Positions 2,833 through 63,541 of a stretch of DNA of 64,000 nucleotides are shown one piece after another. The position numbers and the translations under genes were made by a program. Origin of the DNA: Eledone cirrhosa (taxonomy: Eukaryota); the NCBI GenBank assembly GCA_964016885.1, contig OZ024760.1:13020001-13084000 (forward strand), in the 5' to 3' direction. The notes under the pieces were generated by a model. The model was not told where the DNA came from. It ran no database searches and saw only the letters and a list, made by a program, of their open reading frames with translations. Every line of letters starts with the position of its first letter. The stretch's first letter is position 1.

Positions 2833-3043
2833 TATAGGAAAAGAGTCAGGACCCCGACGGCAGAGCTCCGGACGTTTCGACAGCTAGATCCGAACGGATC
2901 AGTTCGGATCTAGCTGTCGAAACGGCCGGAGCTCTGCCGTCGGTGTCCTGAATCTTTTCATATTACCCACTCTACTACCTTAAGTGTCGAGTACTCGGTG
3001 TGTAATTGTCCACCTGGTATCTTACTACACTTTGTATCCACAC
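2833..3043 (+). mobile_element. Fold-back insert, family B
   Basis: Inverted arms around a loop at 2896-2901; GAAACGGC...GCCGTC; shared tail tattacccactctactacc...ccacctgg. Confidence 0.7.
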
Positions 3044-3740: not shown

Positions 3741-3832
3741 TATTGGGTCGTCAAGTATGAAATTTGTAGACATTTGTAGACATTTTTTTTTCTACAAGTT
3801 CCTACAAATTTCACACTTGACGACCCAAAATA
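3741..3832. mobile_element. Mariner-like MITE; single TIR at 3654-3686, decayed copy at 62237-62297
   Basis: TA-TTGGGTCGTCAAGTATGAAATTTGTAG ... CTACAAATTTCACACTTGACGACCCAA in TA context. Confidence 0.55.
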
Positions 3833-7870: not shown

Positions 7871-8272
<402 letters not shown>

Positions 8273-15387: not shown

Positions 15388-15800
15388 TCTTCTTCTTCTT
15401 CTTCGCCCTCTTATTCCTGAGAGGGTTGTGAGGAAGATCCTCAAAAACACTCCTTCCAGCAGTTCCTGTCAGAATCAACCCTTTTCCAACTGATCCGGCT
15501 GGATCCCCAAGTGAGATCAGCCAAGCTCATGGATGTTATCCAGCCATCTTGCTCGGGGTCTCCTGCTGGTTAGTTTTGCCCGTAAAATCTGTCCAGTGAT
15601 TCTTTCCTCAGACATTCTAAACACATACCCATAGTATCGGAACTGTGATGTCTCAATCGGAGAAGTAGCAGCTCTATCTGGAGTAACTCCAGTGATTCTT
15701 TCCTGAGACATTCTAACCAAATGTCCATAGTATCGGAGCTGTGCTATCTAAATTCGGAGAAGTAGCGGCTCTACCTGGAGTGATTCTCTGGTCTCCGAGT
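15388..15800 (-). mobile_element. RTE LINE 3' fragment with internal duplication and (GAA)n tail
   Basis: IETSQFRYYGYVFRMSEERITGQILRAKLTSRRPRARWLDNI. Confidence 0.8.
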
Positions 15801-16583
15801 TACGCACTCTATCGAATAAGGTTACTCCAAAGACCCTTCGAAGAAATCTCATTTCAGCCGTTTGTATTCGCGATCGTATTATTTCAGTCATTACCCAGGA
15901 TTGTTGGTACGAAAACCAAATTGAAGTTAGCGAGTTTAGACTATTTCCAAAAAAATTATTTTAAACTTCCTCGTTTGAAATAAAATTTCCATTTTTTATC
16001 TTTTTGTATTTTCTTCCATTCCAGTAAGATTTCTGTTTGTTCTTCAAGTCTTTATAGCCAGACATTGCTCCTTCCTTCTTCTGTTCCCTCACTTCTTTCA
16101 ATGTTTTAGAGAACATTATTTTTTCATCCCCTTGTTAATTGAAAAGAGGGACGAACTATTATTTGTGTTTACATATATATATATATACACTTATATATAT
16201 ATATATATACAGACACACACACACATTATATATATATACAGACATACACACATTATATATATATATATATATATAGACATACACAGATTATATATATATA
16301 TATATATAGACATACACACATTATATATATATATATAGACATACACACATTATATATATATATATAGACATACACACATTATATATATATATATAGACAT
16401 ACACACATTATATATATATATATATATATAGACATACACACATTATATATATATATATATATACATACATACACACATTATATATATATATATAGACATA
16501 CACACATTATATATATATATATATATATAAATATATAAATATATATATATATAAATATATATATATATAAATATATATATATA

Positions 16584-17614: not shown

Positions 17615-18812
17615 AAGCATGTGGTCAGTATGTCTCAGGAAAAAATCACTGGAGTCACTCCAGGTAGAGCTGCTACTTCTCTGAATTGAGAGATCACAGC
17701 TCTGATACTATAAACTTGTGGTTAGAATGTCTCAGGAAAGAACCACTGGACAGATCTGTAGCTCGGAGATGAGAGAGTCACTCCAGGTAGAGCTGCTACT
17801 TCTCCGAATTGAGAGATCACAGCTCTGATACTATAGACTTGTGGTTAGAATGTCTCAGGAAAGAACAACTGGACAGATCTGTAGCTCGGAGATGAGAGAG
17901 TCACTCCAGGTAGAGCTGCTACTTCTCTGAATTGAGAGATCACAGCTCTGATACTATAGACTTGTGGTTAGAATGTCTCAGGAAAGAACAACTGGACAGA
18001 TCTGTAGCTCGGAGATGAGAGAGTCACTCCAGGTAGAGCTGCTACTTCTCCGAATTGAGAGATCACAGCTCTGATACTATAGACTTGTGGTTAGAATGTC
18101 TCAGGAAAGAACAACTGGACAGATCTGTAGCTCGGAGATGAGAGAGTCACTCCAGGTAGAGCTGCTACTTCTCTGAATTGAGAGATCACAGCTCTGATAC
18201 TATAGACTTGTGGTTAGAATGTCTCAGGAAAGAACAACTGGACAGATCTGTAGCTCGGAGATGAGAGAGTCACTCCAGGTAGAGCTGCTACTTCTCTGAA
18301 TTGAGAGATCACAGCTCTGATACTATAGACTTGTGGTTAGAATGTCTCAGGAAAGAACAACTGGACAGATCTGTAGCTCGGAGATGAGAGAGTCACTCCA
18401 TGTAGAGCTGCTACTTCTCTGAATTGAGAGATCACAGCTCTGATACTATAGACTTGTGGTTAGAATGTCTCAGGAAAGAACCACTGGACAGATCTGTAGC
18501 TCGGAGATCAAAGAGTCACTCCAGGTAGAGCTGCTACTTCTCCGAATTGAGAGATCACAGCTCTGATACTATAGACTTGTGGTTAGAATGTCTCAGGAAA
18601 GAACCACTGGACAGATCTGTGGCTCGGAGATCAGAGTCACTCCAGGTAGAGCTGCTACTTCTCCGAATTGAGAGATCACAGCTCTGATACTATAGACTTG
18701 TGGTTAGAATGTCTCAGGAGAGAATCACTGTACAGATTTTACAGGCAAAACCAACCGGCAGTAGGAAACCCAGGAGTAAACTCCGAGCAAGATGGTTGGA
18801 TAACATCCACGT
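17615..18812 (+). repeat. 123-bp tandem array (~9 units) derived from RTE RT C-terminal coding sequence
   Basis: Units start at 17654, 17777, 17900 and so on; each encodes LQVELLLL(R/*)IERSQL*YYRLVVRMSQERTTGQICSSEMRES. Confidence 0.9.
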
Positions 18813-19149
18813 TAAAACCTGTTGAGAAAGTGGCTTCCTTGTTCAATCATCTTACCAGAAGCCTGACATTATTTATGTAAGCGGGCGGTACTTGATTTAG
18901 GAGTTGTAGAAACCCAAATACTGGATTTTACCAACATTCCAGGGGTCAGGGTAAATTTTCAATACCCGAAATACTTGATCGTTTTTTTGGCCATGCGAAA
19001 TATTGTTTAACCATCGTCTCAGTGTGTTTGGCCTTTAACGTTTGTTATAGCTCTGGTTCATCTGAATCATTGAGCACTTGCCTCACATCTCAGAGGTTGT
19101 TTTTCGTTATTTCGTGGGCCGAAATGCGAATCTCGATAATTTATGTTTG

Positions 19150-21189: not shown

Positions 21190-21995
21190 CCAAGGTGGTG
21201 AATTGGCAGTATCGGTGAATTGGCAGTCGGACACCATGCTTTCCAGCATAGTTACGTCCCTTTATGATCTGAGTTCAAATCCCGCCGAGGTTGACTTTGC
21301 CTTTCATCCTTACGGGGTCGATAAAATAAAGTACCAGTAATGCACTGGGTAATTGCTGGCCTTGTGTCTAAAGTAGAAACAATTATTTACATGTCGTCTA
21401 TAAACCATATCACTTATCTAATTATCTTTGTGTTAATTGACTTTGGAAACGTTAATAAGCTCCATAAATATTTATCTTTGAGTTATTCCATTGTTCTATC
21501 TGCATTTAGCTTCAATATCGTGTAGAAATATATCTTCTCATACACAACAACGGTGAGAAGAGCATATTATGTTTATCTAACATAACATTTACATTACTCT
21601 ATATAGGGCGGTGGATTGGCAGTATCGGTAGAGGGTCGGACGCCATGCTTTCCAGCATAGTTACGTCCCTTTACGATCTGAGTTCAAATCCCGCCGAGGT
21701 TGACTTTGCCTTTCATCCTTACGGGGTCTATAAAATAAAGTACCAGTAATGCACTGGGTAATTGCTGGCCTTGTGCCTAAAGTAGAAACAATTATGTTTA
21801 TCTAACAGTGGTGGATTGGCAGTATCGGTAGAGGGTCTGACGCCATGCTTTGCAGCAAAGAGTTACGGCCCTTTATGGTCTGAGTTCAAATCCCGCCGAG
21901 GTTAACTTTGCCTTTCATCCTTACGGGGTCGATAAAATAAAGTACCAGTAATGTACTAGGTAATTGATAGCCTTGTGCCAAAAGTAGAAACAGTT
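21190..21995 (+). mobile_element. Three tRNA-derived SINE copies (21190-21385, 21606-21790, 21808-21993)
   Basis: A/B-box head (tggcagtatcggt, gagttcaaatcc), central gcctttcatccttacggggtcgataaaataaagtaccag (Meta/MESC-like domain); TSDs attatttacatgtcg and ttatgtttatcta. Confidence 0.85.
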
Positions 21996-22044
21996 ATGTT
22001 TATCTATTTTAGAGACAATGATAAAATATATTATATTTCTTATA

Positions 22045-22235
22045 TAGGCACAAGGCCAGCAATTTTGGGGGAGGGGGAAATCGATCAAATCGACCCCAGT
22101 GCATGACTAGTACTTTATTTTATCGACCCTTTAAGGATGAAAGGCTAAGCTGGCCTCGGCAGATCGTAAAGGGCCGTAATTCTATGCCGCAAAACGTTGT
22201 CCGACGCTCTACCGATTACAGCCAATCCTCCACCC
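22045..22235 (-). mobile_element. SINE copy, longer subfamily (similar copy at 28935-29135, -)
   Basis: Reverse complement of the consensus with an extra gggggaggggg insert. Confidence 0.7.
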
Positions 22236-22319
22236 TTCTCTAGTTTATAAGAATCACACACACACACACACACAAGAGATGTCAACATGAATGGACCTGT
22301 TATTTTTATCTAAAGACAT

Positions 22320-22895: not shown

Positions 22896-22991
22896 CAATT
22901 CATTTTCACCTGACGAGATCAGTGATAATCGATCATGGCCGCACGAGCGATCTATCTCTGATTGAAACATGTGTCGTGATTAAAATGATTG
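22896..22991 (+). ncRNA. Type I hammerhead ribozyme, intact core
   Basis: caattcattttcac-CTGACGA-GATCAG...CTGATT-GAAACATGTGTC-gtgattaaaatgattg; extended stem I, GUC site at 22973-22975. Confidence 0.8.
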
Positions 22992-23176
22992 GAAATTTAT
23001 ACCATGCATTCGGATCTTTATTTTGATACAAATACTCCGTTTTACATCATCTAGCTGTTCCCATAAATGGAATTGGAGATATACAGAAGTGTGGAGAACT
23101 TAATATTGCTAACAAAAGTTTATTGGACCGTATGACACAACCAATAATACACCTTACTATATATATATATATATAT

Positions 23177-23526
23177 TAGAAAGTGAGTTTTGTTTTACAA
23201 ATTGAAAAATAACCGAGGTGTCCTACACGAGTGAAAGTATAAAGAAAAAGAGATGAAATCGAAAATGTAACTGGAGTCTTATTTTTTTTTTAAATATATA
23301 TATTTATTTGGTTCCTTTACCGGTTTCGCAGTTCTTCTGCTTTTCAAAAGGTGAGTTGAGATGGAGGGTCTGTGGTTTTTCTAAAAGCCACAGACCCTCC
23401 ATCTCAACTCACCTTTTGAAAAGCAGAAGAACTGCGAAACCGGTAAAGGAACCAAATAAATATATATATTTTTTTAAAAAATAAGACTCCAGTTGCATTT
23501 TCGATTTCATCTCTTTTTCTTTATAT
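23177..23526 (-). mobile_element. Fold-back insert with ~143-bp arms and an HHR-like motif in each arm
   Basis: Arms ~23238-23380 / 23384-23526; cctt-TTGAAAA-GCAG aagaa CTGC-GAAACCGGTA-aagg at 23412-23449; (TA)n on both sides. Confidence 0.7.
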
Positions 23527-23980: not shown

Positions 23981-24059
23981 GAGGTGATGTAACATCATGA
24001 TAAATGCAGACCTCTCCCCTCTCTCTCTCTCTCTCTCCTTATATATATATATATATATA

Positions 24060-24180
24060 TAGAAAGGCTTTTACAGGACTAGTCCTGTAGAAGCCTTTCT
24101 ATATTAAATATGTATACTCTGCTTTGTATTGAGTACCTTACTTAATGTGGTTACCCCCGATTGAACCCGGGATAAACTTA
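24060..24180 (+). mobile_element. Short fold-back insert between (TA)n tracts
   Basis: tagaaaggcttttacaggactagtcctgtagaagcctttcta palindrome plus tail ...gtattgagtac, shared with 94-193 and ~960-1020(-). Confidence 0.5.
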
Positions 24181-24574: not shown

Positions 24575-24775
24575 TCATCATCATCAGGTCGAGCTTGCTC
24601 GGCTTTCTACGACACATTTCCTCCATCCATCTCTGTCTCTCATAGCGTTTGCCAGTTCTTCCGCAGTGCATCCAGTATCGTCCTCAAGTTGCTTGACGTA
24701 TGTCTTCTTGGGACGACCACCGTTTCTTGCTCCATGAGATGGACTCCATAACAACACATCACCTGCTATTTCTTC
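24575..24775 (-). mobile_element. RTE/RTE-X-like LINE 3' fragment with (GAT)n tail
   Basis: Minus strand translates EEIAGDVLLWSPSHGARNGGRPKKTYVKQLEDDTG...MRDRDGWRKCV. Confidence 0.75.
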
Positions 24776-24777
24776 CT

Positions 24778-24970
24778 ATAAATGTAAGCTATCGCCGTAT
24801 TTTGACTAAAGAAATTAAAGATGTCAATACTCATCTTTTTCCATTTCTCCGAGGGTTCTTAACCCCACTATTAGGCTAAATAATTTTCTTTAAATTCTTT
24901 AGTCAAAATACGGCGATAGCTTACATTTATAATTTCAAACTCACTCACTGTTTCGAAAATATTCTTACTT

Positions 24971-24974
<4 letters not shown>
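24778..24974 (+). mobile_element. Inverted-arm insert, family D
   Basis: Arms ~24778-24825 / 24886-24931; homologous to 47927-48241. Confidence 0.6.
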
Positions 24975-25032
<58 letters not shown>

Positions 25033-25043
25033 GATAAACACTA

Positions 25044-26568
25044 TTGGAATTTCAAAATGAATACTGGACCAGAAACACATATAGTAATCTTTTCGATATT
25101 ACTATGGGCTCAAGCGATTCTGCCCAAATTGCTGATCTTGTGGGCCTCTTTCTTCTTGTTAACATAAATGCTTCCTTTCCCCACCTTAAAGGTGGTTTAT
25201 ATCGTGACGACTGCCTTCTTCTTTCCAATAACCTTAGCCTTTCAGAGATAGAAAAAAATAAAAAGCTTATTAGAACTTTCCTCAAAGACTTTTATAGTCT
25301 AGATATTACATTTGAAAACACAAGTAAAGTAGTTAATTTCCTTGATATAACATTAGACTTATCTACGGGTATCTACCAACCTTACCATAAACCTAACCAA
25401 AATTTACATTACATACACTCACAATCTAATCACCCTAAATCTATCCTTAAAAACCTTGCATATAATATCTCACTTAGAATTTCTAACCTTTCGTCTAACC
25501 AGGATGTATTTGATAAAAATGCGACCTTTTATAACGAAGCTTTAGCTAGAAGTGGCCACAAAAATAAATTAGTATATATACCTTGTACCAATAACACTAC
25601 AAACATACAACCTAATACTACCAACAAACACCAAATGAAACATACACACCTAAATGCCACTCACACTATACCCCAAAATACCAACATAAAACCAAATTTC
25701 TCTAAGTCTTCTAATATAGTAACTCTCAAAAAACTACTCATCCTACTACTCTAATAAATGTTAATAATAAAACTCCTAATAAACAAGCTAAAACACCTAA
25801 ATCAATAAATCTAACTAAAAATGTGTGTGGTGAGGTCATTAACAATAATTCTCTTAATAAACATCAGGATACATCCTATAAAAACAATAAACAACATCAA
25901 AACCGTAATAGACGAGTTAATTGATATAATGCTCCATTTAATTTACAAATTGAGGATAATATACCTAAAGAATTTTTTAATATCCTAGAGAAGAACTTCC
26001 CGCCAAACCACAAATACCATCAAATTTTAAATAGATCAACGGTTAAATTCTCCTACTCAACAACCAAATACATAAAACAAAATATAAGTGCCTACAATGC
26101 ATATAAATGTAAAAAAAAACCATGAGTATACCACCAGTACATCAAACTAACCATAATATCTCCTCTGATACAGGATTCACGAAAAGGTGTAACTGTAGAA
26201 ACAAAGCAAACTGCCCATTAAAAGGAAATTGCCTTGTTAATAACATAGTATATAAATGTAAAGTTAACACTAAAGACTCAATTTATTCATATATAGGAGC
26301 TACCTCTAACCAATTTAAGGTAAGATTTAATACCCACAAACATAGTTTTTAAAATGCCGCATTAGCTAATACAACATCTCTAGCTGAAATAATTAATAAT
26401 TATAGAAAGAGGAATATAGATTATGACCTGACCTGGAGTGTACTCAAAAGGGCCACCCCTTATCAAAATAATAGATATGAATGTAGATTATGTTCCCAAG
26501 AACTTTTTGAAATAATGAAATCTAAGGATATCCTATTAAATAAACGACAGAAATTAATAATATCATAA
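25044..26568 (+). pseudogene. Disrupted PLE RT + GIY-YIG endonuclease ORF
   Basis: Three reading-frame segments (shifts near 25750 and at the A-run near 26115), in-frame TGA at 25922 and TAA at 26350. Confidence 0.85.
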
Positions 26569-26943: not shown

Positions 26944-27658
26944 TCTTTTTATACTTTTTTAATCTCCCCTCGTCTTTAACAGCACTCTTCAATTACATCT
27001 AACTCTTATTTATCATATCTATATGCATTAATATAATTTTATCAATATAAATATACCCATCAATTAAATTAATTTATATTCTTTTCATAGATGTAAATTC
27101 CATATATATTTTTTTCACTAACAATTTTATCGTAAAACTTTAGTCTCCTTAGATATTTACATTGGCATTATTCTTTTATAACAGCAACTTTTCGTGTTAC
27201 CTTTTACTGACCTCACCTATTTTCATCCCTAAAATAACCTTTTCAGTCTTCATACTCCTTCCATTCAAAACTGAAATCTGCCTTCTTCTACCCCTAAAAT
27301 AAACTTCAATTACTACTATTTTTCCATTTGGCCAATTATTACCTTTATATTGGTTAATTCAAAACCTGTTCCCAAACAGACCTACTATATTAAATCTTTG
27401 TTGGTTTTATTCAATGAACAAATATAATTATTTCTGAGGTCAGCATATAACCTATTTTCATCCCTAAAATAATCTTCTAATCATAATATTCTTTCCATCC
27501 AAAACTGAAATCTACCTTCCTCTACCCATAAATTAAGGTTCTTTTACTACTATATTACTATCTTGACCTTCACTATCTTTCTATTGGTCAATTCAAAACC
27601 TGTTCCCAAACAGACCTATTGTATTAAATCTTTGTTGGTTTTTTTCAATAAACAAATA

Positions 27659-27796
27659 TCATTATTTCTGAAGACAGCATATATATGTGTAGGTATGTAT
27701 ATTCCCTCTGATAGTTTGTAAAAAATTTACATAGATCTATAGGATATGCATACCAACACTAACATATATATCCTAGAAACGATCGTAAAATGATGA
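27659..27796 (+). ncRNA. Type I hammerhead ribozyme at the PLE 3' end, with ~100-nt stem II
   Basis: Stem I tcattattt/aaatgatga; CTGAAGA at 27668; long imperfect hairpin (atatatatgt/acatatatat, ggtatgtatattcc/ggatatgcatacc); GAA + palindromic ACGATCGT + A (GUA site at 27787). Confidence 0.75.
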
Positions 27797-29447: not shown

Positions 29448-30057
29448 ACTGATACTATGGCATGTGGTTAGAATGTCTCAGGAAAGAATCACTGGAGTTA
29501 TTCTAGGTAGAGCCGCTACTTCTCTGAATTGAGACATCACAGTTCTGATACTATGGGCATGTGATTAGAATGTCTCAGGAAAGAATCACTGGATAGATCT
29601 GTAGCCCAGAGATCAGAGAGTCGCCCAGGTAGAGCTGCTACTACTCCGAAATGAGAGATCACAGCTCCGATACTATGGGTATGTGGTTAGAATGTTTCAG
29701 GAAAGAACCGCTGGAGAGTTGCTCCAGGTAGAGCTGCTACTTTTCTGAATTGAGAGATCACAGTTCCGGTACTATGGACATGTGGTTAGAATGTCTGAGG
29801 AAAGAATCGCTGGACAGATTTTACGAGCAAAACCAACCGGCAGGAGACCCAGAGGTAGACCCCGAGCAAGATGGTTGGATAACATCCATGAGCTTGGGCT
29901 TGGCTGGTCTCACTTGGGGATCCAGCCAGATCAGTTGGAAAAGGGTTGCTTCTGACAGGACCTGCTGGAAGGAGTGTTTTGAGGACTCTGCTCTCCATGA
30001 TCGTCTCAGGAATAAGCGGGCGATGAAGAAGAAGAAGAAGAAGAAGAAGAAGAAGAA
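29448..30057 (+). mobile_element. Same RTE 3' fragment with ~3 internal duplications and (GAA)n tail
   Basis: Homologous to 15388-15800 and 17615-18812; ends gcgat(gaa)n. Confidence 0.85.
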
Positions 30058-36749: not shown

Positions 36750-37495
36750 ACAGTGTTAGTGCGTTAGACAAAATCAATTGTGGCATTTAGTTACGTCCCT
36801 TTACGATCCGAGTTCGAATCCTGCCGAGGTTAAGCTTTATCTTTCATCCTTACAAGGTCGATAAAATAAAGTACCAGTAATGCACTGGGATAATTGCTGG
36901 CCTTGTGCCTAAAGTAGAAACAATTATTATATTTCTATTGGCGGTGAATTGGCAGTATGGGTAGAGGGTCGGACGCCATGCTTTCTAGCATAGTTACGTC
37001 CCTTTACAGTCTGAGTTCAAATCCCGCCTAGGTTAGCTTTGCCTTTCATCCTTACGGGGTCGATAAAATAAAGTACCAGTAATGTACTGGGTATTTGCTG
37101 GCCTTGTGCCAAAAATAGAAACAATTATTATATTTCTTTTGGGGCGATAGATTGACAGGAATCAGTAGAGCGTTGGTCAACATGCTTTGCGGCATAGAGT
37201 CACAGCCCTTTACGTTCTGGGTTCAAATCCCGCCGAGATTAAGCTTTTCCTTTCATCCTTACAAGATCGATAAAATAAAGTACCAGTAACGCACTGGAGT
37301 CGATTTAATCGACTTTCCCCTCCCCACCAAAAGTTGCCGTTGGCCTTGTCCCTAAATTAGAAAACATTATCTACGTTCTGAGTTCAAATCCCACCGAGGT
37401 TAACTTTGCCTTTCATTCTTATGGGGTCCAGAAAAGAAAGTACCAGTAATGCACTGGGGTAATTGCTGGCCTTTTGCCTAAATCAGAAACCATTA
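36750..37495 (+). mobile_element. Cluster of four SINE copies
   Basis: Successive copies; TSD-like attattatatttct at ~36923 and ~37124. Confidence 0.8.
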
Positions 37496-37929
37496 ATATA
37501 TTAAACTGGCAGTAGTTGGTAGACCGTCGAACAAAAAATGTTTTGTGATATTCAAGTATGGTTCCCAGGGACCTCGGTTCGCGTTTCATTTCTCAACATT
37601 GCTGGCCTTGAGCCTTAATTAGAAACCTTTGTTTATTTATTTATTTAAAATACCACGTGACTTATCAAAATCTAATTTCAGACCAGATCTGTTGGTAGTC
37701 ACTAGTGGAGGTGGTAGTGGAGGTGGTGGTAGTGGTGGTGGCGGTCTTAGTGTTGGTAGTCACTAGAGGTGTTGGTGGTGGTGGTGGTGGTGGTGGTGGT
37801 CTTAGTGTTGGTAGTCACTAGAGGTGTTGGTGGTGGTGGTCACAAGTGTGTGAGGAGGGGGGGGTATCCAATATTGTCTTTCTGTTTTACGTTAGTCTCT
37901 CTCATTCTCTCGGTAGATATTTCCCTTTC

Positions 37930-37986
<57 letters not shown>

Positions 37987-37996
37987 GAAAGGGAAA

Positions 37997-38032
<36 letters not shown>

Positions 38033-38041
38033 AAAGGGAAA

Positions 38042-38086
<45 letters not shown>

Positions 38087-38096
38087 GAAAGGGAAA

Positions 38097-38137
<41 letters not shown>

Positions 38138-38147
38138 GAAAGGGAAA

Positions 38148-38188
<41 letters not shown>

Positions 38189-39019
38189 GAAAGGGAAAGG
38201 ATATATATATATATATGACGCACACATGTATATATACATACACATATATATATATTATTATTAGCACGTCCCTTCTATCCTGCTTCACCCCCCTCTCCTC
38301 CGCCTTCTCCCCCACCCCCTCCTCTCTCGCCCTCTCTCTCTCACTCTCTCTCTCTCTCTCTCTATATATTATTCAAACCTTAGTTTTATCTTGAAATCTA
38401 ATACATTGTTTATACTGTTTGTTTGTTTCTATCTTTTTCTTTTTTTTACTTCGGAAGAAAGAAGAAGAAGAAAAGTATGTGGGTGGAGAAATGGGGGGGG
38501 GGGGGGGTAGTGGTGGAGGGGCGGGGCGATTTTTTATTGCTAATCCTACTGTGTAAAATCATCGTTGCGAAGGCAGTGTAACAGCAGAATCGGTGGAGCA
38601 CCAAATTAAACTATTTAGTTAAACACCATTACACACTGCGTTCAAATCCATCAGTAAGCCCCTTTTATTTTGCAGCCCCACTCGCCTGGGTCTCCATAAA
38701 AAATCAAGTAAGTGTGCCACTCAAGTCAAGGGTGCAGGGGGCGATTTAAAATACTGAATCATTTGAACTCGGAATGTAAAGGAACAGAATCAAATACCAC
38801 ATGGTATTATTCTCTCCCACGCTCTAATGACCCTACAAACCTTCATATGTATTTTTGTCCAGATTAATACTATTATTATGCTATGGATAAGTCAATATAT
38901 CGATACACCCTTTGTTTCTTTTGTTCTTTTGTCCTCTGAAACGACCGTAAACCAATGGATTAATTAACTTCTAAACCTTGCCTTATTTAATTTCATCGTT
39001 CAACCTTATATATATATAT

Positions 39020-40882: not shown

Positions 40883-41460
40883 TATACATACATACATAGA
40901 AACACCTACACACACGTAAATATGTGTGTTATGTTGACACAAAACCCTCTGTGTTGTAAGATGAAAGGACAAAAAAACATAGACGTGTATTTGTGTGTGT
41001 GTGTATATATGTGTGATGTGTATGTGTGATGGTGTGTGTGTGTGTGTGACGGTGTGTGGTGGGGATGAATGTATAAATACAGAACTCGTCTATCTGAAAT
41101 AACAACAGTCAGCATTTAATTGAAAAACAAAAGACAAACAATCCAAGAACAAAGAATGTGAGGCAAAGTGGAGTGAGAGTGGGAGAGGGAGGAAGATGGG
41201 TGAGAGTGATGTGAGGATGGGAAAAGAGGAGGAGGGAAGGAAACTAATTTCCGAGTCCTATATTCTTCTAATTCAACTACTCACCTCACCAAAATTCCAT
41301 CTTACACTCCACCTAAAACTGGCATACCTATCTCCAGCTTTACATTTCCATCTGTCTTTCTTTCCATCCTTCCATCTATCTATCGACCCACCAGGCCATC
41401 TATCCTCCTATTTATTCATTCATTCAACCACACAGCTACGTACCCTTCTACTCATTCCTT

Positions 41461-42165
41461 TATCCACCCCAATCACCTATATATCCATCCATTTCTCTAT
41501 CCAGCCATCTATATATCTACCCAGCTATATCTCCACCCCTGTATCCACCCCAATCACCTATATATCCATCCATTTCTCTATCCAGCCATCTATATATCTG
41601 CCCAGCTATATCTCCACCCCTGTATCCACCCCAATCACCTATATATCCATCCATTTCTCTATCCAGCCATCTATATATCTACCCAGCTATATCTCCACCC
41701 CTGTATCCACCCCAATCACCTATATATCCATCCATTTCTCTATCCAGCCATCTATATATCTGCCCAGCTATATCTCCACCCCTGTATCCACCCCAATCAC
41801 CTATATATCCATCCATTTCTCTATCCAGCCATCTATATATCTACCCAGCTATATCTCCACCCCTGTATCCACCCCAATCACCTATATACCCATCCATTTC
41901 TCTATCCAGCCATCTATATATCTACCCAGCTATATCTCCACCCCTGTATCCACCCCAATCACCTAAATACCCATCCATTTCTCTATCCAACCATCTATAT
42001 ATCTACCCAGCTATATCTCCACCCCTGTATCCACCCCAATCACCTATATACCCATCCATTTCTCTATCCAACCATCTATATATCTACCCAGCTATATCTC
42101 CACCCCTGTATCCACCCCAATCACCTAAATACCCATCCATTTCTCTATCCAACCATCTATATACA
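41461..42165. repeat. 81-bp minisatellite, ~8.5 units
   Basis: tatccaccccaatcacctatatatccatcc... with period 81. Confidence 0.9.
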
Positions 42166-42189
42166 CCCAACGATCATACATTTAAAAAC

Positions 42190-42476
42190 CTGGCCGTTTC
42201 GACAGCTACATCCGAACAGTTCAGACCTAGCTGTCGAAAGGGCAGGAGCTCAGCCGTCGGGGTCCTGACTCTTTTCCTATTACCCACTCTACTACCCTAA
42301 GTATTGAGTACTCTGGTGGGTTATGGTCCACCTGGGATCTTACCACACTTTCTTTATTATATATATATATATATAACGAAGGAAGTGTGGTAAGGAACCA
42401 GGTGGACCATAACACACCAGAGTACTCGATACTTTGGGTAGTAGAGTGGGTAATAGGAAAAGAGTCAGGACCCCCT
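42190..42476. mobile_element. Two family B copies tail-to-tail across a (TA)n tract
   Basis: 42190-42358 (+, with fold-back 5' end) and 42376-42476 (-). Confidence 0.7.
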
Positions 42477-44197: not shown

Positions 44198-44802
44198 ATA
44201 TAGAATGCTATTTCATTTTGATTTTGAAAGTAGGTTTATAATTATCAATTTTCATTAACCTTTTGTAGTTGTGTCAGTGACCGAGTTGGAGGAATCATAG
44301 ACGGTGGTGATCCGGGTCTGAAGTTCGATCCTAGTCGGGAGTGGAGTTCCCGGTGATACTTTTCAATTTTTTTCTGTTGGTTGTAAAATAAAAACTGAAA
44401 AAGGTTACATGTACCTCTTGACCAGGATTGAACAAAAGACCAGTATCTCCACCGTCTCTAGTACCTACCGCTGGGACACTGAGACAACTACAAAAACCTT
44501 ATGAAAATTCATACTTATAAACCTACTTTCAAAATGTTCAATACAAAACGATGAGACTTCGTTCATGTCTTTCTTAATGTTATTGCTCCTAAATCATTTG
44601 GGTGTTCCATAAACTACATCCTCCTTTTGTTTCTAATCTATCTAGACTATATTTTAACCTGTAATCCAGGTTTCATTTCTGTTGCACCTCGTTCCCCCCT
44701 CTCTTTCTCTCTGTGATATTTGAATCTACTGTGATTTGGGCTTACCTTATTCATATATATATGTTTTTGCATGTCAGATTCAAACTTACAATGGTTGGCA
44801 TT

Positions 44803-45089: not shown

Positions 45090-45127
45090 GTTTTTAATCT
45101 CTTTCTTTTATTTATTTCTAATTACAG
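45090..45127 (+). promoter_or_regulatory. Splice acceptor upstream of the HS3ST coding exon
   Basis: Long polypyrimidine tract ending ...tttctaattacag at 45127, 42 nt before the ATG; implies an upstream non-coding exon that was not located. Confidence 0.65.
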
Positions 45128-45169
45128 AGAATCTGTCGCAGCTACGTAATTTCACGTTTACGGAGCATC

Positions 45170-46096
45170 ATGAGTTTTCGGTTCAGGTACATTTATATTA
45201 TACCAACCGCAATTATCTTCTGTATAGTGTTGGGTGTATTGTCCCATGTTAGCCTAGTACGGCCGAAGGTGAGGATGCTACCCACTTACATGAACCAGAA
45301 ACTTATGGACTGCGATGCAAAAAAGCGGCTACCCAGCTGTATTATCATAGGTACTCCGAAATCGGGTACGAAGGCCTTAATTGAATTTATTGGAGTACAT
45401 CCTTCCGTTGCTATTGCAGAAGGCGAACCGAAATTCTTCAATAGGGACGATAATTTTCAGAAAGGAATGAAGTTCTATTTGGATAAAATGCCTTTGTCTT
45501 GCCCGGATCAGATTACCCTGGAAAAATCCCCGGAATACTTTTACAGTGAAAAAGCACCGGGACGGATATTTAGTATGAACAGAACCATCAAGTTGATTCT
45601 GATAGTGAAAAATCCCGTGGACCGTTCCATTTCGGACTATATACACCGACGAACCCATAATAGCGCAAAAGAAATAGCACATAGCTTTGAAGAACTGGTC
45701 TACAACAGCAAGACCAAAAAACTGAACACAGGGTATTACCCCATTGCCAAGTCGGTCTATTTCCACTATCTCTTTCGATGGTTGCGATATTTCCCGCTTG
45801 GGCAGATTCACGTGGCCGATGGTAGCAAATTGATTGTAGATCCTCAAGAAGAACTACTCAAAGTACAAGACTTTCTCGGTCTAACGAGGCTGATTTCTAA
45901 AGATAACTTCATATATAATAGCACCAGGGGCTTCTACTGCATGTTAATAAATTCTGAATCGCGGTGTTTGCCGCCAAATAAGGGGCACCGAAACGTTAGC
46001 ACAAATAAGGTAGTATTAAAACAAATGGTGAAATATTTTAAACCACATAACCAGATTTTCTTCCACCTCATAAACAAAAATCTTTCTTGGACATAA
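45170..46096 (+). CDS. HS3ST: Heparan sulfate glucosamine 3-O-sulfotransferase (HS3ST1/5-like), single coding exon
   Basis: 308-aa ORF. N-terminal hydrophobic anchor (IIPTAIIFCIVLGVL), KRLPSCIIIGTPKSGTKAL (5'-PSB loop), EKSPEYF, KNPVDRSISDY (3'-PB), WLRYFPLGQIHVADG, YNSTRGFYC...CLPPNKG. Family level only; orthologue not resolved. Confidence 0.93.
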   Translation: MSFRFRYIYIIPTAIIFCIVLGVLSHVSLVRPKVRMLPTYMNQKLMDCDAKKRLPSCIIIGTPKSGTKALIEFIGVHPSVAIAEGEPKFFNRDDNFQKGMKFYLDKMPLSCPDQITLEKSPEYFYSEKAPGRIFSMNRTIKLILIVKNPVDRSISDYIHRRTHNSAKEIAHSFEELVYNSKTKKLNTGYYPIAKSVYFHYLFRWLRYFPLGQIHVADGSKLIVDPQEELLKVQDFLGLTRLISKDNFIYNSTRGFYCMLINSESRCLPPNKGHRNVSTNKVVLKQMVKYFKPHNQIFFHLINKNLSWT

Positions 46097-47777: not shown

Positions 47778-47787
47778 TATATATATA

Positions 47788-47872
47788 TTTATTAAAATAA
47801 CAGATTAAAGTTTAAGCAAAGAATCGCTGCTTTCACCCTTAAAGATCCCGAATCTGTTATTTTAATAAATTA
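47788..47872. mobile_element. Family F inverted-arm insert (other copies 49190-49262, 49416-49481, 56190-56352, 63367-63541)
   Basis: Shared ttattaaaataacagattaaagtttaagcaaagaatcgctgctttcaccc in both orientations, always adjacent to (TA)n. Confidence 0.65.
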
Positions 47873-47926: not shown

Positions 47927-48241
47927 TGAAAAGTAAATATGTTTTAGAAACAGCGAGCGAGTTTGGAAATAGAAATAGAATCTTTCGCCGTATTTTTGAC
48001 TACAGAAATTTTAACTTGATAGTAGGGTGTAGAAGCCTCTAAGAAATGGTAAAAGATGAGTATTGACGTTGATTAAAGCAATTCTAGCCTGATAGTGGGG
48101 TTTAAAGGCCTCTAAGAAATGGAAGATGAGTATTGACGTACATGTACGTCAATACTCATCTTTTTCCATTTCTTAGAGGGCTTTAAACCCCACTACCAGG
48201 CTAAAATTGTTTTAGTCAAAAATACGGCGAAAGATCTATTT
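47927..48241 (-). mobile_element. Fold-back insert, family D, with internal ~70-bp duplication
   Basis: Centre gacgtacatgtacgtc at ~48135-48150. Confidence 0.6.
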
Positions 48242-48269: not shown

Positions 48270-48325
48270 ACTGCCTGAAGAGGTCACAGCCAAAGATGGC
48301 TGTCACCGAAATATATATAAGCAGT
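48270..48325 (+). ncRNA. Type I hammerhead ribozyme
   Basis: actgc-CTGAAGA-GGTcACAGCCA aaga TGGCTGTcACC-GAA-ATATATAT-A-a-gcagt, then AATAAA; one extra A at the cleavage junction. Confidence 0.7.
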
Positions 48326-48473
48326 AATAAACGAAGCCAAATTTTAAACATTTGACTTATTTATTTCATTTTATTTTACATTACTCCGGAGTAACCCAAC
48401 CCAACCTGCGCACCTCGTCGAGTGCTCCAATCTGCATACTGAGGTGTTGGTATACAACCAACATATACTCAAA

Positions 48474-48528
<55 letters not shown>

Positions 48529-48595
48529 CGATGTTTAGGTTCACTTCAGTTTAGAGGTGTAGAGCTAGTCAGAGTGTATTATATTGAGATAGAAA

Positions 48596-48780
48596 GGCCG
48601 GTCAGTTGGCAGTATCGGTAGTGTGTCGGACATGCTTTCCAGCATAGTTACGTCCCTTTACGATCTGATTTCAAATCCCGCCGAGGTTAACTTTGCCTTT
48701 CATCCTTACGGGGTCGATAAAATAAAGTACCAGTAATGTACTGGAATAATTGCTGGCCTTGTGCCAAAAGTAGAAACAAT
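48596..48780 (+). mobile_element. SINE copy
   Basis: TSD attatattgagatagaa; inserted at the end of the family E element. Confidence 0.85.
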
Positions 48781-48781
48781 T

Positions 48782-49004
48782 ATATTGAGATAGAATAACA
48801 AGGACGATTGGTTACTCCTTCATTACATTAATGAATCCGCTGTTCGTCAGACCCCTTATAGTGGGGTCTGACTAGCTGCGGATTACACAGTCGGGCTAGA
48901 TCGATACAGATCGAACCTTGAGCTGATCAGTGGCGAAACGCGCATCACCAACTAATAAACGTAATGAAGGAGTAACCAACCGTCCTTGTTATTCTATCTC
49001 AATA
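48782..49004 (+). mobile_element. Inverted-arm insert, family E (also 7108-7206, -)
   Basis: Arms 48782-48826 / 48960-49004; tggcGAAACGCGCATC-accaactAATAAA resembles an HHR 3' half; internal hairpin gtcagacccc/ggggtctgac. Confidence 0.55.
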
Positions 49005-49186: not shown

Positions 49187-49373
49187 TTATTTATTAAAAT
49201 AACAGATTAAAGTTTAAGCAAAGAATCGATGCTTTCACCCTGAACGGGATCTTATTATTACTATAATCCCACCGAGGGTAGCTTTGCCTTTCATCCTTAC
49301 GGGGTCGATAAAATAAAGTACCAGTAATGCACTGGGTAATTGCTAGCCTTGTGCCTAAAGTAGAAACAATTAT

Positions 49374-49419
<46 letters not shown>

Positions 49420-51224
49420 ATAATAAGATCCCGTTAAGGGTGAAAGCAGCGATTCTTTGCTTAAACTTTAATCTGTTATTTATATATAATATTATTCAAA
49501 ATATTAACAAATGAAAAAATTAAAAACTTGAATAATATTAAAACTTGAATAATATTAAAAATTCCAGGAAAACTTTTCTGTTGAGTCTTTCTAATCTATT
49601 GTAAATTTGTTGAATACTCATTCAACGAACCATACTAATCTTTGGTTATATATATATATATATATATATAAGAATAACATTAAGAAAGATGCTTTGATTA
49701 CATAATGTTATTCTTATACTGAATCTCCATGATAACTACACACTGCGAATGTAGAGAGCTTTCTCCTGCTTACTCCTGTTTTTTTGTTTGTTATTTTTTT
49801 ACCAAAACAACTTTTTTACTGAATATATCTCTCTATATATAAATATTTATAAATATTTATGTATGTATATTAATGTATTTATTGTTTCATATATTCTCGT
49901 TATAACCCCAACACCACCACTACCACAAACGACGACGACCACCACCACCACCACCACTGCCGCACCCTTGGACAACATCGGTGACGTAGAGAGGGGGAAA
50001 CCAGTATGCATGGATGACTACTGCTCTTCCACAAACAACCTTGCCCAGATTTGGGCCTCGGAGGAGAACTTTGTAGGTGCAAATCCCATGGTCGTTTGTG
50101 AACTTTTAAAGCTGGCCCTCGTAAAACCGAATGTTCCAATGAAACCTTAAATTGCAATAAATTGTACAATAAATCTTATCTAAATAGAGACACATTACCA
50201 GGGTTTAGAATGGACTTCCCTAAAGACACACAAGTACTATATCTAACAGGGACAAATAACGGAAGGGGATCGGGGGTTCTGGACCGAATGCATGCAATGA
50301 AATTACTTCCCTAAAACACACACAAGTACAAGATGGTGATTTTTAAACAATGTTTTTGTTTTAAAGAGCCTTGGTGTGACATCATAACTCTAATTACTTA
50401 ACACTGCTTGTTTCAAAACTTCATGCAATAGATTTTATAACTTTATTCTGTAATTCGGCTGTGTAATTTATGCTTTCATCAGGATTCATTTGTTGTATTT
50501 TTAAAAATATTTAATAATAAATTAATTTTATTATGAAAATAAAATAAAAAAGATATAATTTAAAACAAATTAAAATTGTATTTGTTTTAGTATTTTTCTC
50601 TCACTACACACACACACACATATTTATATATATATATATACACACACACATGTACGCCAAATTTTTATTGGCTCAATGTCCAACTTTGGTTTTATTAGAT
50701 GTAATACATACACTCTCTCTTTCGCTTTTCGCTTCTCCCTCACAAATTCTCTCTATCTCTCTCCTTCTCTCTCTCAAATTGTCTATCTCTCTCAAGCCTT
50801 CTCTGCCTCTCCTTCAAATTCTTCCCCTCTCTCTCGCCCTCTCTCTTCTATCTCACCACTAAGCCACTACGCCTAGTAAACTTTATGGAATGGTATTTAG
50901 AGCTAATGTCTTTAAGTGAATCATCAGAGAGCTCCGTTGGTGGCAGCAACATAACAATTCAGTTCTCTTGTCCAGGGAGGGTAACAGTAACTTGTTGAGT
51001 GCAATATGTGTAGTTAATCGTTCTGACTAAAACGACATTTACGTTCTCCTGGTGAGCGGAAGCAGGGAGGGTTTGCCGACAGAGCCACGGAGTCTGCAGA
51101 TGATGAAGGGCAGAGGAGGAGAGATATTACTGTCCCTGTCTCTGGGTGTTTTCATGATGTTTAAAACTCTCTCTTGTGTGAGTGTATATATGTATATACA
51201 TGTGTGTGTAAATGTATGTGTATG

Positions 51225-55962: not shown

Positions 55963-55964
<2 letters not shown>

Positions 55965-56163
55965 CGAAGGAAATGTGGTAAGGAACCAGGTGGACCATAA
56001 CGCACCAAAGTACTCAATACTTAGGGTAGTAGAGTGGGTAATAGGAACGAGTAGGACCCCGACGGCTGAGCTCAAGCCGTTTCGACGGCTAATTCTGGAC
56101 AATTCAGTCCAGAATTAGCCGTCGAAACGGCTTGAGCTCAGCCGTCGGGGTCCTACTCGTTCC

Positions 56164-56166
<3 letters not shown>
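55963..56166 (-). mobile_element. Fold-back insert, family B
   Basis: Perfect 60-bp arms 56041-56100/56107-56166; long arm continues to (TA)n at 55963. Confidence 0.75.
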
Positions 56167-56189: not shown

Positions 56190-56194
<5 letters not shown>

Positions 56195-56352
56195 ATAATA
56201 ATAAATTTGAAGACTAAAATCCAAAGAGGGCTCGATAAGGATAAATATTTATCAAATATATAAGAACCGTAGAGCAAATATTTATTAAAATAACAGATTA
56301 AAGTTTAAGCAAAAGCAGCGATTCTTTGCTTAAACTTTAATGTTATTTTAAT
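56190..56352 (-). mobile_element. Family F insert with fold-back end
   Basis: Near-identical to 63367-63541. Confidence 0.6.
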
Positions 56353-56475
56353 TTTAAAAAAATATATATATAGAGAGAGAGAGAGAGAAAAGATGAAGTT
56401 GGAAATAGCACGGGAGATATATTTAAGGGTCTGTTTTTCTTTTTTGATTCGTCAAAGTGACATTATTGAAAAGAT

Positions 56476-56665
56476 AGGCGGTGGATTGGCAGTATTGGTA
56501 GAGGGTCGGACGCCATGCTTTGACGCATAGAGTTACGGCCCTTGCCATTCTGAGTTCAAATCCCGCCGAGGTTAACTTTGCCTTTCATCCTTACGGGGTC
56601 GATAAAATAAAGTACCAGTAATACACTGGGTAATTGCTGGCCTTGTGCCTAACGTAGAAACAATT
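56476..56665 (+). mobile_element. SINE copy
   Basis: TSD attattgaaaaga. Confidence 0.85.
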
Positions 56666-56811
56666 ATTGAAAAGACAGTGTTATTGAAAAAAAGAGGGGG
56701 ACAATTGTTTTTTAAAAAAAATTTTTTATGAAGTATATAAAGTATACGAGAGAATTACCGGTATCGATGTATTAAAATCCATCTTGTTAAATATAGTGTA
56801 AAAAGTTGATT

Positions 56812-57057
56812 AAAAAGAGTTGATAGGAGTAAAAAAAGAAAGGTTTAAAATTAAAATCAAAATTGAATGTTTGAGTAATTTTTCTTCCATCTTGCTTCTT
56901 GAAAAGTTGTTTAGAAATGAGAACAAGCTGCTTACTTGTAAGGGAGGAACTGTTCCATACAACTTTTCAAGAAGCAAGATGGAAGAAAAATTACTCAAAC
57001 ATTCAATTTTGATTTTAATTTTAAACCTTTCTTTTTTTACTCCTATCAACTCTTTTT
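56812..57057. repeat. Perfect ~98-bp inverted repeat with ~50-bp spacer
   Basis: Arms ~56812-56909 and ~56960-57057. Confidence 0.85.
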
Positions 57058-58165: not shown

Positions 58166-58289
58166 ATTGTTCAACATTAAATCAACATTTTGTTCTTATA
58201 TATTATGTATACTGCAGTCCTACAAACTGTAGAGTGCTTCTTATCCGATATCTGCATTGCTTTATTGTACTACAATAAAACTCACCTCC

Positions 58290-58327
<38 letters not shown>

Positions 58328-58557: not shown

Positions 58558-59101
58558 TATTTCACATATAATTATGCAAACATACATCAACACACACACA
58601 CACACACACACAGAGAGACACACAGACAGAGCAATTTTCGGTAATATTATATTATGTTGGAGTCAGTGAAATTTACACGATTCCTTAATTAGTGTCATTA
58701 ATTGGCAGAATTACACCTAAATTAGTGGAGAACAAATCTACAACAGAAGACGACGACATTGAGGGGACATTATTAAAGGTTGGTGGTTTGTCATCAGTTG
58801 AGTACATTTATGGTGTGGTGGGAGAGGAGGGAGTGGTCTGTGTGGTGGGAGAGGAGGGAGTGGTCTGTGTGGTGGGAGAGGTGGGAGTGGTATGTGTGGT
58901 GGGAGAGGTGGGAGTGGTCTGTGCGGTGGGAGAGGTGGGGGAGGAGGAAGTGGTATGTGTGGTGGGAGAGGTGGGGGAGAAGGAAGTGGTCTGTGTGGTG
59001 GGAGAGGATGGAATTGTTAGTATATATGAGTATATATATATATATATACTCATATATACTAACAATTCCATCCTCTCCCACCACACAGACCACTCCGTCC
59101 T

Positions 59102-59137: not shown

Positions 59138-59187
59138 GAGCCGTCGAAACGGCTTGAGCTCTGCCGTCGGGGTCATACTTTTTCCTA
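59137..59187 (+). mobile_element. Family B short-arm fragment between (TA)n tracts
   Basis: agccgtcgaaacggcttgagctctgccgtcggggtc...ttcctat. Confidence 0.65.
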
Positions 59188-59900: not shown

Positions 59901-59954
59901 TTTTGATTGCCCTGATGAGTCCTTAATAGGACGAAACATTGTCGGCTAATAAAA
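59901..59954 (+). ncRNA. Minimal type I hammerhead ribozyme, intact core
   Basis: gcc-CTGATGA-GTCCT taat AGGAC-GAAAC att GTC-ggc, followed by AATAAA; lies in a ~145-bp insert between (TA)n tracts. Confidence 0.85.
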
Positions 59955-60510: not shown

Positions 60511-60694
60511 TAGGAACAAATATGACCCCGACGGCAGAGCTCAAGCCGTTTCGACGGCTATTTCTTGAGTCAAGAAATAGCCGTCGAAACGGCTTGAGCT
60601 CTGCCATCGGGGTCCTATTACCCACTCTACTACCCTAAGTATTGAGTACTTTGGTGCGTTATGGTCCATCTGGTTCCTTACCACAATTCCTTCG

Positions 60695-60696
<2 letters not shown>
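60511..60696 (+). mobile_element. Fold-back insert, family B
   Basis: Palindrome centred at 60569 (ttcttga-g-tcaagaa); (TA)n on both sides. Confidence 0.75.
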
Positions 60697-63371: not shown

Positions 63372-63539
63372 ATAATAATAAAATTGAAGACTAAAATCCA
63401 AAGAGGGCTCGATAAGGAAAATATATATCAAATATATAAGAACCGTAGAGCAAATATTTATTAAAATAACAGATTAAAGTTTAAGCAAAGAATCGCTGCT
63501 TTCACCCTTTGCTTAAACTTTAATCTGTTATTTTAATAA

Positions 63540-63541
<2 letters not shown>
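63367..63541 (-). mobile_element. Family F insert with fold-back end
   Basis: Arms ~63456-63490 / 63508-63541; (TA)n on both sides. Confidence 0.6.

What the first reader, a model, noticed from the sequence alone, without database searches (positions are those of the whole stretch)
60511..60696. Short arms of fold-back inserts end at a fixed internal TA microhomology
Seen: in family B the short arm ends at ...TTCCTA|T at 2833, 56166, 59187 and 60511, and three of these run directly into (TA)n. The long arm continues ~80 nt to ...ttcgtt(ata)n. The same pattern holds for other palindromes: 7871 (aaacgttta|ta), 23526 (tttcttta|ta) and 24060 (tttcta|ta). Inference: the snap-back strand is resolved by annealing an internal TA to the cut (TA)n target, giving a reproducible asymmetric hairpin without a discernible TSD.
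Basis: partly seen in the sequence, partly recalled or inferred. Interest (0 to 1): 0.7.

Follow-up and report, generated by a model that had tools for sequence, protein, structure and literature searches.

The report
Penelope retrotransposon fold-backs with one-sided tails
These lopsided hairpins are likely short remnants of Penelope-like retrotransposons inserted in TA repeats, a known layout, and their short arm ends at a TA-matching site just before a small shared RNA-hairpin motif that likely marks a second start point for reverse transcription.

Summary
The observation mostly holds. Four of five family-B short ends stop at TTCCTA|T. However, 59187 is a lone arm with no fold-back, and a fifth copy (42189) ends elsewhere. 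TA overlap at short ends is real: 3-5 nt in seven families against about 1.0 expected (P about 1e-5 with four misses counted).

The layout matches Penelope-like elements (PLEs): an inverted 5'-truncated copy, a tail on one end, (TA)n targets and no readable target-site duplication. Several families carry hammerhead ribozyme motifs, and a truncated Hydra-type PLE reading frame lies at 25030-26560.

TA pairing alone does not fix the site, because longer TA runs are bypassed. Three insertions have only short ends, so the short end is probably itself a priming site, matching the two reverse-transcription starts shown in vitro for an anole PLE.

Not found in the papers searched: the TA overlap at the tail boundary, and a bulged hairpin just 3' of it that is shared by four families here and three of six published Hydra consensus sequences.

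The parts
60511..60568 (-). Focal insertion, short (tail-less) inverted arm; ends at TTCCTA into a 13-nt TA run
60569..60696 (+). Focal insertion, centre (60569) and long arm; putative 3' half of a hammerhead (GAAAC at 60586, stem III, cleavage triplet mutated to ATC here; inferred), about 10-12 nt deletion at the short-end site, tail ending TTCGTT into a 46-nt TA run
60624..60647 (+). Bulged tail hairpin motif RCTC-stem-loop-stem-TN-GAGY in the focal long arm
55963..56165 (-). Family B fold-back: long arm 55963-56100 (minus strand, 78-nt tail), short arm 56107-56165; arms identical over 60 nt; (TA)n on both sides
59139..59187 (+). Family B lone short copy (no fold-back, no tail), ending TTCCTA into (TA)n
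2835..3033 (+). Family B fold-back: short arm 2835-2895 (minus strand), long arm from 2902 that diverges after 3033 and reads on towards (TA)n at 3331
42189..42357 (+). Family B fold-back whose left arm (42189-42217) stops early in non-TA sequence (counter-example); its arms differ at 6 of 27 positions
42375..42474 (-). Family B tailed copy whose 5' end falls at the predicted hammerhead cut (after GTC, within 1 nt), tail-to-tail with the previous copy across (TA)n
7871..8137 (+). Family F fold-back: short arm left, 4-nt TA overlap, 41-nt tail; no ribozyme motif found
23180..23526 (-). Family G fold-back: complete minimal hammerhead (U3-A8 core variant) in each arm (cores at 23347 minus, 23416 plus), 4-nt TA overlap, 58-nt tail
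24057..24178 (+). Family H fold-back: zero-loop centre, 5-nt TA overlap, 74-nt tail with the hairpin motif at 24116
24777..24973 (+). Family I fold-back: short end at TATA (flank not (TA)n), 41-nt tail; a related copy at 47931-48241 ends at a non-TA site
63382..63541 (-). Family C long-short fold-back (second one at 56190-56352); 4-nt TA overlap, 72-nt tail with hairpin motif; the copy near 31000 shows a full hammerhead with one core change
47785..47870 (.). Family C fold-back with two short ends (a second such insertion spans 49188-49479, split by a SINE)
48526..49003 (-). Family M fold-back, long arm interrupted by a SINE with a 16-nt duplication (48579 and 48780); 5-nt TA overlap, 54-nt tail with hairpin motif
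25030..26560 (+). 5'-truncated, broken Hydra-type PLE reading frame (RT from the YRDD region, CxCx5C linker, C-terminal GIY-YIG-like region), starting right after (TA)n
59906..59950 (+). Type I hammerhead (Rfam RF00163, 31.7 bits, gathering score 34, E 1.4e-6) in a 130-nt insert between two (TA)n tracts

Best explanation
The fold-backs are likely heavily 5'-truncated 3' ends (pseudo-LTRs) of Penelope-like retrotransposons, probably of the Hydra clade, inserted in (TA)n, and the fixed short end likely marks the inner of two reverse-transcription start sites, where the nicked TA target would pair with a 3-5-nt TA match in the element RNA. Inferred steps: the element's GIY-YIG endonuclease nicks both strands of (TA)n. 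One nick primes cDNA at the outer start and gives the arm with the tail. The other primes at the inner start, just 5' of a bulged hairpin that would hold the enzyme, and gives the arm without the tail. Both cDNAs stop early, often in or near hammerhead stem II, and join head to head at a short self-complementary word or a native hairpin. Shown directly: two fixed 3' ends with variable 5' ends, the TA overlap, the ribozyme and hairpin motifs, and TA flanks that hide any target-site duplication.
For: Family B copies share two 3' ends (4 short, 4 long) while their 5' ends vary. The published PLE layout is the same: an inverted 5'-truncated copy, a tail at one end, (TA)n bias and no discernible duplication (Craig 2021), with palindromes at the inverted junction (Arkhipova 2013). 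In vitro, an anole PLE cuts and extends both strands and starts reverse transcription at two sites that bracket the tail (Frangieh 2024). Hammerheads: G in both arms and cores at 22910 and 59912, C with one core change, and two more read by eye at 102 and 48275. A Hydra-type reading frame lies in the window (tblastn E down to 3e-48, 39-52% protein identity to unnamed homologues carrying the clade's motifs). TA overlap P 5e-5. Short-only insertions: 3. The tail hairpin occurs in 4 of 7 tails and, read by eye, in 3 of 6 published Hydra consensus sequences. Of 6 further motif hits outside those families, 4 continue with the expected RCT (P 8e-5), 4 have TATA or ATAT within 14 nt upstream (P 0.002), and 2 follow a hammerhead. 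In copy 42189 the short arm is closer to another copy (2 of 27 differences) than to its own long arm (6 of 27), as two templates would give.
Against: No family-B copy keeps the CUGANGA half of the ribozyme; Rfam gave no hammerhead match for the focal copy, and the half-hammerhead fold is not the minimum-energy fold. No family-B copy is joined to a PLE reading frame. In the anole element the start site was not homologous to the cut DNA. Tails here are 41-78 nt against the published 30-40. Arms within an insertion are near-identical in 3 of 4 B fold-backs (0-1 differences in 27 nt), which snap-back also predicts. The tally of 10 long-short, 2 short-short and 0 long-long departs from independent choice at each nick (P 0.013; the two non-site short ends and two unclassifiable palindromes were left out, and long-long cannot be recognised in single-copy families). 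The hairpin descriptor was written after seeing B, C, H and M, so the 4-of-7 count is not an independent test; F, G and I lack the motif; whole-tail folding energies are not exceptional (z from -1.7 to +1.1).
Confidence: 0.55

Rival explanations
1. Same PLE origin, but the second arm is a snap-back strand: the truncated cDNA folds on itself, a polymerase such as host Pol theta copies it back, stalls before the tail hairpin, and joins the other target end through the nearest TA match.
For: It predicts long-short and short-short but never long-long products, as seen (10, 2, 0). Arms are near-identical in 3 of 4 B copies. Self-priming was proposed for PLE junction palindromes. Human Pol theta extends stem-loops from two terminal base pairs and joins by microhomology (abstract). 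(TA)n-centred inverted copies of flanking DNA lie beside two B insertions.
Against: It still needs the short site to be a priming site for the three short-only insertions. Three centres (2898, 24080, 48142) are symmetric with no loop, which fits two ends annealing at a palindromic word better than a hairpin (inference). The arms of copy 42189 look like different variants.
Confidence: 0.27
2. The element's own endonuclease, which prefers TA, re-cuts a double-stranded intermediate at the internal TA site and so removes the tail from one arm.
For: Craig 2021 suggests the tail comes from endonuclease-mediated resolution. The tail was required for recognition and cleavage by the Drosophila endonuclease (as reported). 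It explains a fixed position and a TA motif together.
Against: It explains lone short copies less simply. The later in vitro work maps the tail boundaries to reverse-transcription starts. Longer TA runs in the G arm and C tail are not used.
Confidence: 0.09
3. They are MITE-like or fold-back DNA transposons that insert in TA, with the arms as terminal inverted repeats.
For: Short palindromes flanked by TA; 31 recently active Penelope-like families but also many MITE and TIR families are reported in an octopus genome.
Against: Arms meet head to head at centres that differ between copies. One end carries a constant extra tail. Single-arm copies with variable 5' ends exist. Ribozyme motifs are present.
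Confidence: 0.04
4. Symmetric inserts lost one tail later by deletion between an internal TA and the flanking (TA)n.
For: Microhomology deletions are common in PLE copies, and one is seen in the focal long arm.
Against: All four B ends use the first of three equal 3-nt sites (P 0.037). C ignores 7- and 8-nt runs in its tail. No long-long precursor was seen.
Confidence: 0.05

Closest known systems
Hydra-clade Penelope-like elements (Craig et al. 2021, PMC8557442), including Hydra-1_Obim from an octopus
   Same: (TA)n insertion, hammerheads near the 3' end, inverted 5'-truncated copies, a tail at one end, no discernible target-site duplication. The bulged hairpin motif is visible by eye in 3 of 6 consensus sequences in their File S7, with a TA run shortly upstream. 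A Hydra-type reading frame is in the window.
   Different: Family B motifs were not found in their supplement. Tails here are 41-78 nt, not 30-40. Family B would have a longer stem III than the tabulated Hydra ribozymes. The passages read do not describe the hairpin or a TA overlap at the tail boundary.
Poseidon PLE of the green anole, PAc (Frangieh et al. 2024, PMC11167929)
   Same: Two reverse-transcription starts bracket the tail, both DNA strands are cut and extended, a stem-loop lies at the start region, targets are AT-rich.
   Different: PAc starts at RNA not homologous to the cut DNA, whereas the short ends here share 3-5 nt with the TA target.
Adineta vaga Penelope elements (Arkhipova et al. 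2013, PMC3846280)
   Same: Inverted pseudo-LTRs, palindromes at the inverted junction, an optional tail on one inverted repeat.
   Different: Those often show 8-10 bp duplications and a 31-bp tail, and were interpreted as self-priming on an antisense template.
Minimal hammerheads of PLEs (Cervera and de la Pena 2014, PMC4209133) and animal retrozymes (bioRxiv 10.64898/2026.07.22.740005)
   Same: Short type I hammerheads with palindromic helix III, the U3-A8 core variant (family G), pairs of motifs close together on opposite strands.
   Different: Retrozymes are head-to-tail tandem arrays; these copies are single or head-to-head.

Membership tests
Penelope-like element (family B) | Fixed 3' ends with variable 5' truncation | tested here: met
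   Two fixed 3' ends and variable 5' ends in 10 arms
Penelope-like element (family B) | Inverted 5'-truncated copy adjoining the 5' end | tested here: met
   4 fold-backs
Penelope-like element (family B) | Tail on one end only, 30-40 bp in print | tested here: inconclusive
   One-sided tail present but 78 nt long; 41-74 nt in the other six families
Penelope-like element (family B) | Hammerhead ribozyme in the pseudo-LTR | tested here: inconclusive
   Only a GAAA-stem III-GUC half remains in B and Rfam gives no hammerhead hit; complete motifs in G and C
Penelope-like element (family B) | Linked RT plus GIY-YIG reading frame | not testable with these tools
   No B copy in the window extends upstream of stem II and no eukaryotic genome collection was available; a separate PLE frame lies at 25030-26560
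Hydra clade (reading frame at 25030-26560) | C-terminal GIY-YIG preceded by CxCx5C, no CCHH finger | tested here: met
   CNCRNKANC followed by VYKC..YIG with no cysteine pair between the motifs; the Pfam GIY-YIG hit is weak, in 1 of 5 homologues (E 0.012), and none for the window pieces
Hydra clade (reading frame at 25030-26560) | RWK and DKT motifs in the N-terminal RT region | tested here: inconclusive
   That part is truncated in the window; a DK[TS]xN motif is in 12 of 20 homologues and an N-terminal RW[RK] in 5 of 20
Hydra clade (family B) | (TA)n insertion preference | tested here: met
   3 of 5 short ends and 4 of 5 long ends abut a TA run of 13 nt or more; not specific to this clade
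MITE or fold-back DNA transposon | Unit bounded by two equal terminal inverted repeats with a constant interior | tested here: not met
   Unequal ends, variable centres, single-arm copies
Non-LTR retrozyme | Head-to-tail tandem units each with a type I hammerhead | tested here: not met
   No tandem family-B units

The most novel reading that the evidence does not exclude
Hydra-clade PLEs carry a conserved bulged tail hairpin (RCTC-stem-TN-GAGY-RCT) that positions the reverse transcriptase, telomerase-like, so that a nicked (TA)n primer pairs with a 3-5-nt TA template just 5' of it. A dimer primes two cDNAs, sometimes from different RNAs, and these join head to head in ribozyme stem II. This would give a sequence-level rule for how PLE tails and inverted ends form, and would differ from the homology-free initiation reported for the anole element.
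Probability: 0.35. Interest if true: 0.68.

Novelty: new member of a known kind. Interest (0 to 1): 0.42.

Why it matters
How PLEs make inverted ends, one-sided tails and microsatellite bias is stated as open in Craig 2021, and Frangieh 2024 leaves the later steps unvalidated. These miniature inserts give many natural end points in one window, plus two concrete RNA features to mutate in an existing type of in vitro assay: the TA match and the tail hairpin. The hairpin descriptor also finds short PLE remnants that carry no reading frame, which would help repeat annotation in TA-rich invertebrate genomes, where such palindromes could be taken for MITEs or microRNA precursors (they score below threshold against miRNA models). 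The architecture itself is already described.

Tried and rejected
The whole-window Rfam scan was swamped by sub-threshold miRNA matches to simple repeats, and only 150 of 607 rows were shown. The focal copy gave 33 sub-threshold matches, none a hammerhead. The 48275 hammerhead read by eye got no Rfam hammerhead match and was missed by my strict and relaxed descriptors, though it folds with z -3.3. The generic inverted-repeat finder returned only TA arrays in its top 25. No family-B match was found in plasmids or in bacterial and archaeal genomes; phage records were not searched. Viral and metagenome contigs stayed unchecked, and no eukaryotic genome set was available, so empty alleles and the upstream parent of family B are untested. 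Motifs from families B, C, F, G, H and I/J were absent from the Craig 2021 supplement apart from one chance hit; line breaks there can hide matches. A PDB sequence search with a homologue found nothing significant. Family M was mis-specified and redone; only the statistics are used. Palindromes 44221-44535 and 56812-57057 have no TA site and were kept as misses. Target-site duplications could not be read because both flanks are TA or simple repeats. The host species was not determined; a cephalopod is my guess from recalled SINE resemblance, not from any call.

Full report
Observation. The focal insert is a fold-back centred at 60569, with a short left arm ending at TTCCTA (60511) and a long right arm ending at TTCGTT (60696), both against (TA)n. 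The family core has 8 matches in the window and none in 100 shuffles. Aligning all ten arms shows two fixed 3' ends and variable 5' ends. Short ends at TTCCTA: 2835, 56165, 59187 and 60511. Long ends: 55963, 60696, 42375 and the homologous site near 42357. The site is therefore used by 4 of 5 short ends.

TA overlap. A self-comparison of the masked window gave 20 nearby inverted matches, including SINE pairs and sub-alignments. For seven families with a short end and a readable long arm, the alternating TA run ending at the short-end position is 3, 4, 4, 5, 4, 4 and 5 nt, against 1.03 expected for random breakpoints and phases (P 5e-5). Counting four short ends without such a site as misses gives 7 of 11 (P 1e-5). 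The overlap is real but not sufficient. F and G pass 5- and 10-nt TA runs before ending at a 4-nt run, B has two more 3-nt runs in its tail, and C has 7- and 8-nt runs in its tail, none of them used. Position matters more than overlap length.

Identity. The layout is the published one for Penelope-like elements. Craig 2021 describes an inverted 5'-truncated copy at the 5' end, a 30-40 bp tail at one end, (TA)n bias, and duplications that cannot be discerned in microsatellites. Arkhipova 2013 describes palindromes at the inverted junction and an optional tail on one inverted repeat. New PLE insertions in Chlamydomonas had a median length of 128 bp, the size range seen here. In the window, family G has a complete minimal hammerhead in each arm with the U3-A8 core reported for PLEs. 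Family C has a full motif with one core change. Further motifs lie at 22910 and 59912 (Rfam E 1.4e-6 for 59912, just under the gathering score), and by eye at 102 and 48275. The strict descriptor found 2 hits in unmasked sequence against a shuffle mean of 0.025. A broken, 5'-truncated reading frame at 25030-26560 matches unnamed 750-800 aa RT proteins and has the CxCx5C linker and cysteine-free GIY-YIG core that define the Hydra clade. Family B itself keeps only what reads as the 3' half of a hammerhead (stem II strand, GAAAC, 5-bp stem III with a palindromic loop, GTC). That reading is inferred: Rfam finds no ribozyme there and the fold is not the energy minimum. One tailed copy begins within 1 nt of the predicted cut (42474). 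This is suggestive only, because that copy could also be a local inverted duplication across (TA)n.

Tail hairpin. Just 3' of the short-end site in B, C, H and M (2-11 nt away) lies a motif RCTC, short stem, loop, stem, 2-nt bulge starting with T, GAGY. I wrote the descriptor after seeing these tails and the published sequences, so 4 of 7 is a description, not a test; F, G and I lack it. Controls: 14 hits in unmasked sequence against a shuffle mean of 2.1, maximum 8 (family copies are not independent). The paired closing combinations give 11 and 4 hits, and the unpaired A-C combination 0. A 2-nt bulge gives 18 hits against 2-7 for other sizes. Six hits fell outside the training families. Four continue with RCT, as B and the published examples do (background 24 of 484, P 8e-5). 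Four have TATA or ATAT within 14 nt upstream (53 of 461, P 0.002). Two follow a hammerhead read by eye, and one (8645) looks like chance. By eye, the motif is in 3 of the 6 Hydra consensus sequences of Craig's File S7: near the 3' ends of Hydra-2_Amil and Hydra-2_Ajap, and at the 5' start of Hydra-1_Ajap, whose 3' end stops in a TA run. This is the best link between family B and that clade.

Mechanism. Frangieh 2024 showed in vitro that a PLE protein cuts and extends both DNA strands and starts reverse transcription at two RNA sites that bracket the tail. Three insertions here have short ends only: B 59139-59187, C 47785/47870 and C 49188/49479. The C ends scatter within about 8 nt of the site. 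These need priming at the short site, so I take it as the inner start, with the TA match acting as primer pairing. All four B centres lie at the putative stem II, differ by a few bases between copies, and do not follow the subfamily split, so the fold-backs probably form anew at each insertion (inference). Whether the second arm is a second primed cDNA or a snap-back strand is not settled. For two cDNAs: the in vitro data, loop-free centres at 2898, 24080 and 48142, and discordant arms in copy 42189. For snap-back: near-identical arms in the other three B copies, a tally of 10 long-short, 2 short-short and 0 long-long (P 0.013 against independent choice, two non-site ends and two unclassified palindromes left out), the short end sitting where a polymerase would meet the hairpin, and Pol theta's known ability (abstract). 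I put these at 0.55 and 0.27, and PLE origin itself at about 0.9.

Novelty. The architecture is known. Eight literature searches and the passages read showed no description of a TA overlap at the tail boundary or of this hairpin. That is limited: the 2005 and 2006 PLE reviews, the Terminon paper and Repbase entries were not seen, and the anole paper's supplementary figures gave no text hits. What I saw of each paper: PMC8557442, first part, passages, sections 11 and 15, supplement parts 1, 2, 52, 53 and searches; PMC11167929, parts 1-2 of 4 and passages; PMC3846280, passages and Discussion; PMC4209133, parts 1-2 of 4; bioRxiv 10.64898/2026.07.22.740005, part 1 of 5; PMC8969392, PMC13282606 and PMC9977147, passages only (the PMC13282606 supplement was listed, not read); PMC11292364, abstract and outline.

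Verdict. A real feature, partly as described, best filed as new, probably Hydra-type members of a known class. Interest 0.42, resting on the TA match and the tail hairpin as testable handles on an open mechanism.

Noticed in passing
window 2771-2788, 3686-3743, 59031-59048: Inverted duplications of flanking DNA centred on a (TA)n tract; two lie directly beside family-B insertions. 7 of 245 tracts scored against 0.4 expected, but the other four hits were repeat pairs or borderline. May record snap-back of a cut TA end.
   Followed up: partly
window 45122-46096 (+): Open reading frame with a sulfotransferase domain (Pfam Sulfotransfer_1, E 8e-24); resembles heparan sulfate 3-O-sulfotransferases by recall.
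   Followed up: no
window 25600-25930: The Hydra-type frame has an asparagine/threonine-rich stretch between RT and the linker, like the N-rich inserts described in rotifer PLEs.
   Followed up: no
window 102-200, 1920-2000 (-), 3547-3643 and 58196-58292, 19050-19140, 22910-23160, 48275-48478: Further single-arm PLE-like 3' ends carrying a hammerhead, the tail hairpin, or both.
   Followed up: partly
window 5347-5529, 12791-13188, 21574-22254, 36757-37532, 56464-56668 and others: An abundant SINE-like family, often in tandem; it inserts into the fold-backs M and C, once with a 16-nt duplication.
   Followed up: no
window 56812-57057 and 44221-44535: Two palindromes without TA ends. The first has a 99-nt perfect stem and a 48-nt loop; the second belongs to a two-copy family (also 11981-12324). 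Class not determined.
   Followed up: partly
window 17652-18737, 41457-42163, 27215-27683, 37947-38216: Tandem arrays with periods of about 123, 81, 234 and 51 nt; the 123-nt array lies in a repeat also present at 15405-15813 and 29449-30021.
   Followed up: no
window 24580-24776 (-): Sequence resembling an RTE-type LINE 3' end (by recall) abuts the short arm of family I, the one TA-motif end whose flank is not (TA)n.
   Followed up: no
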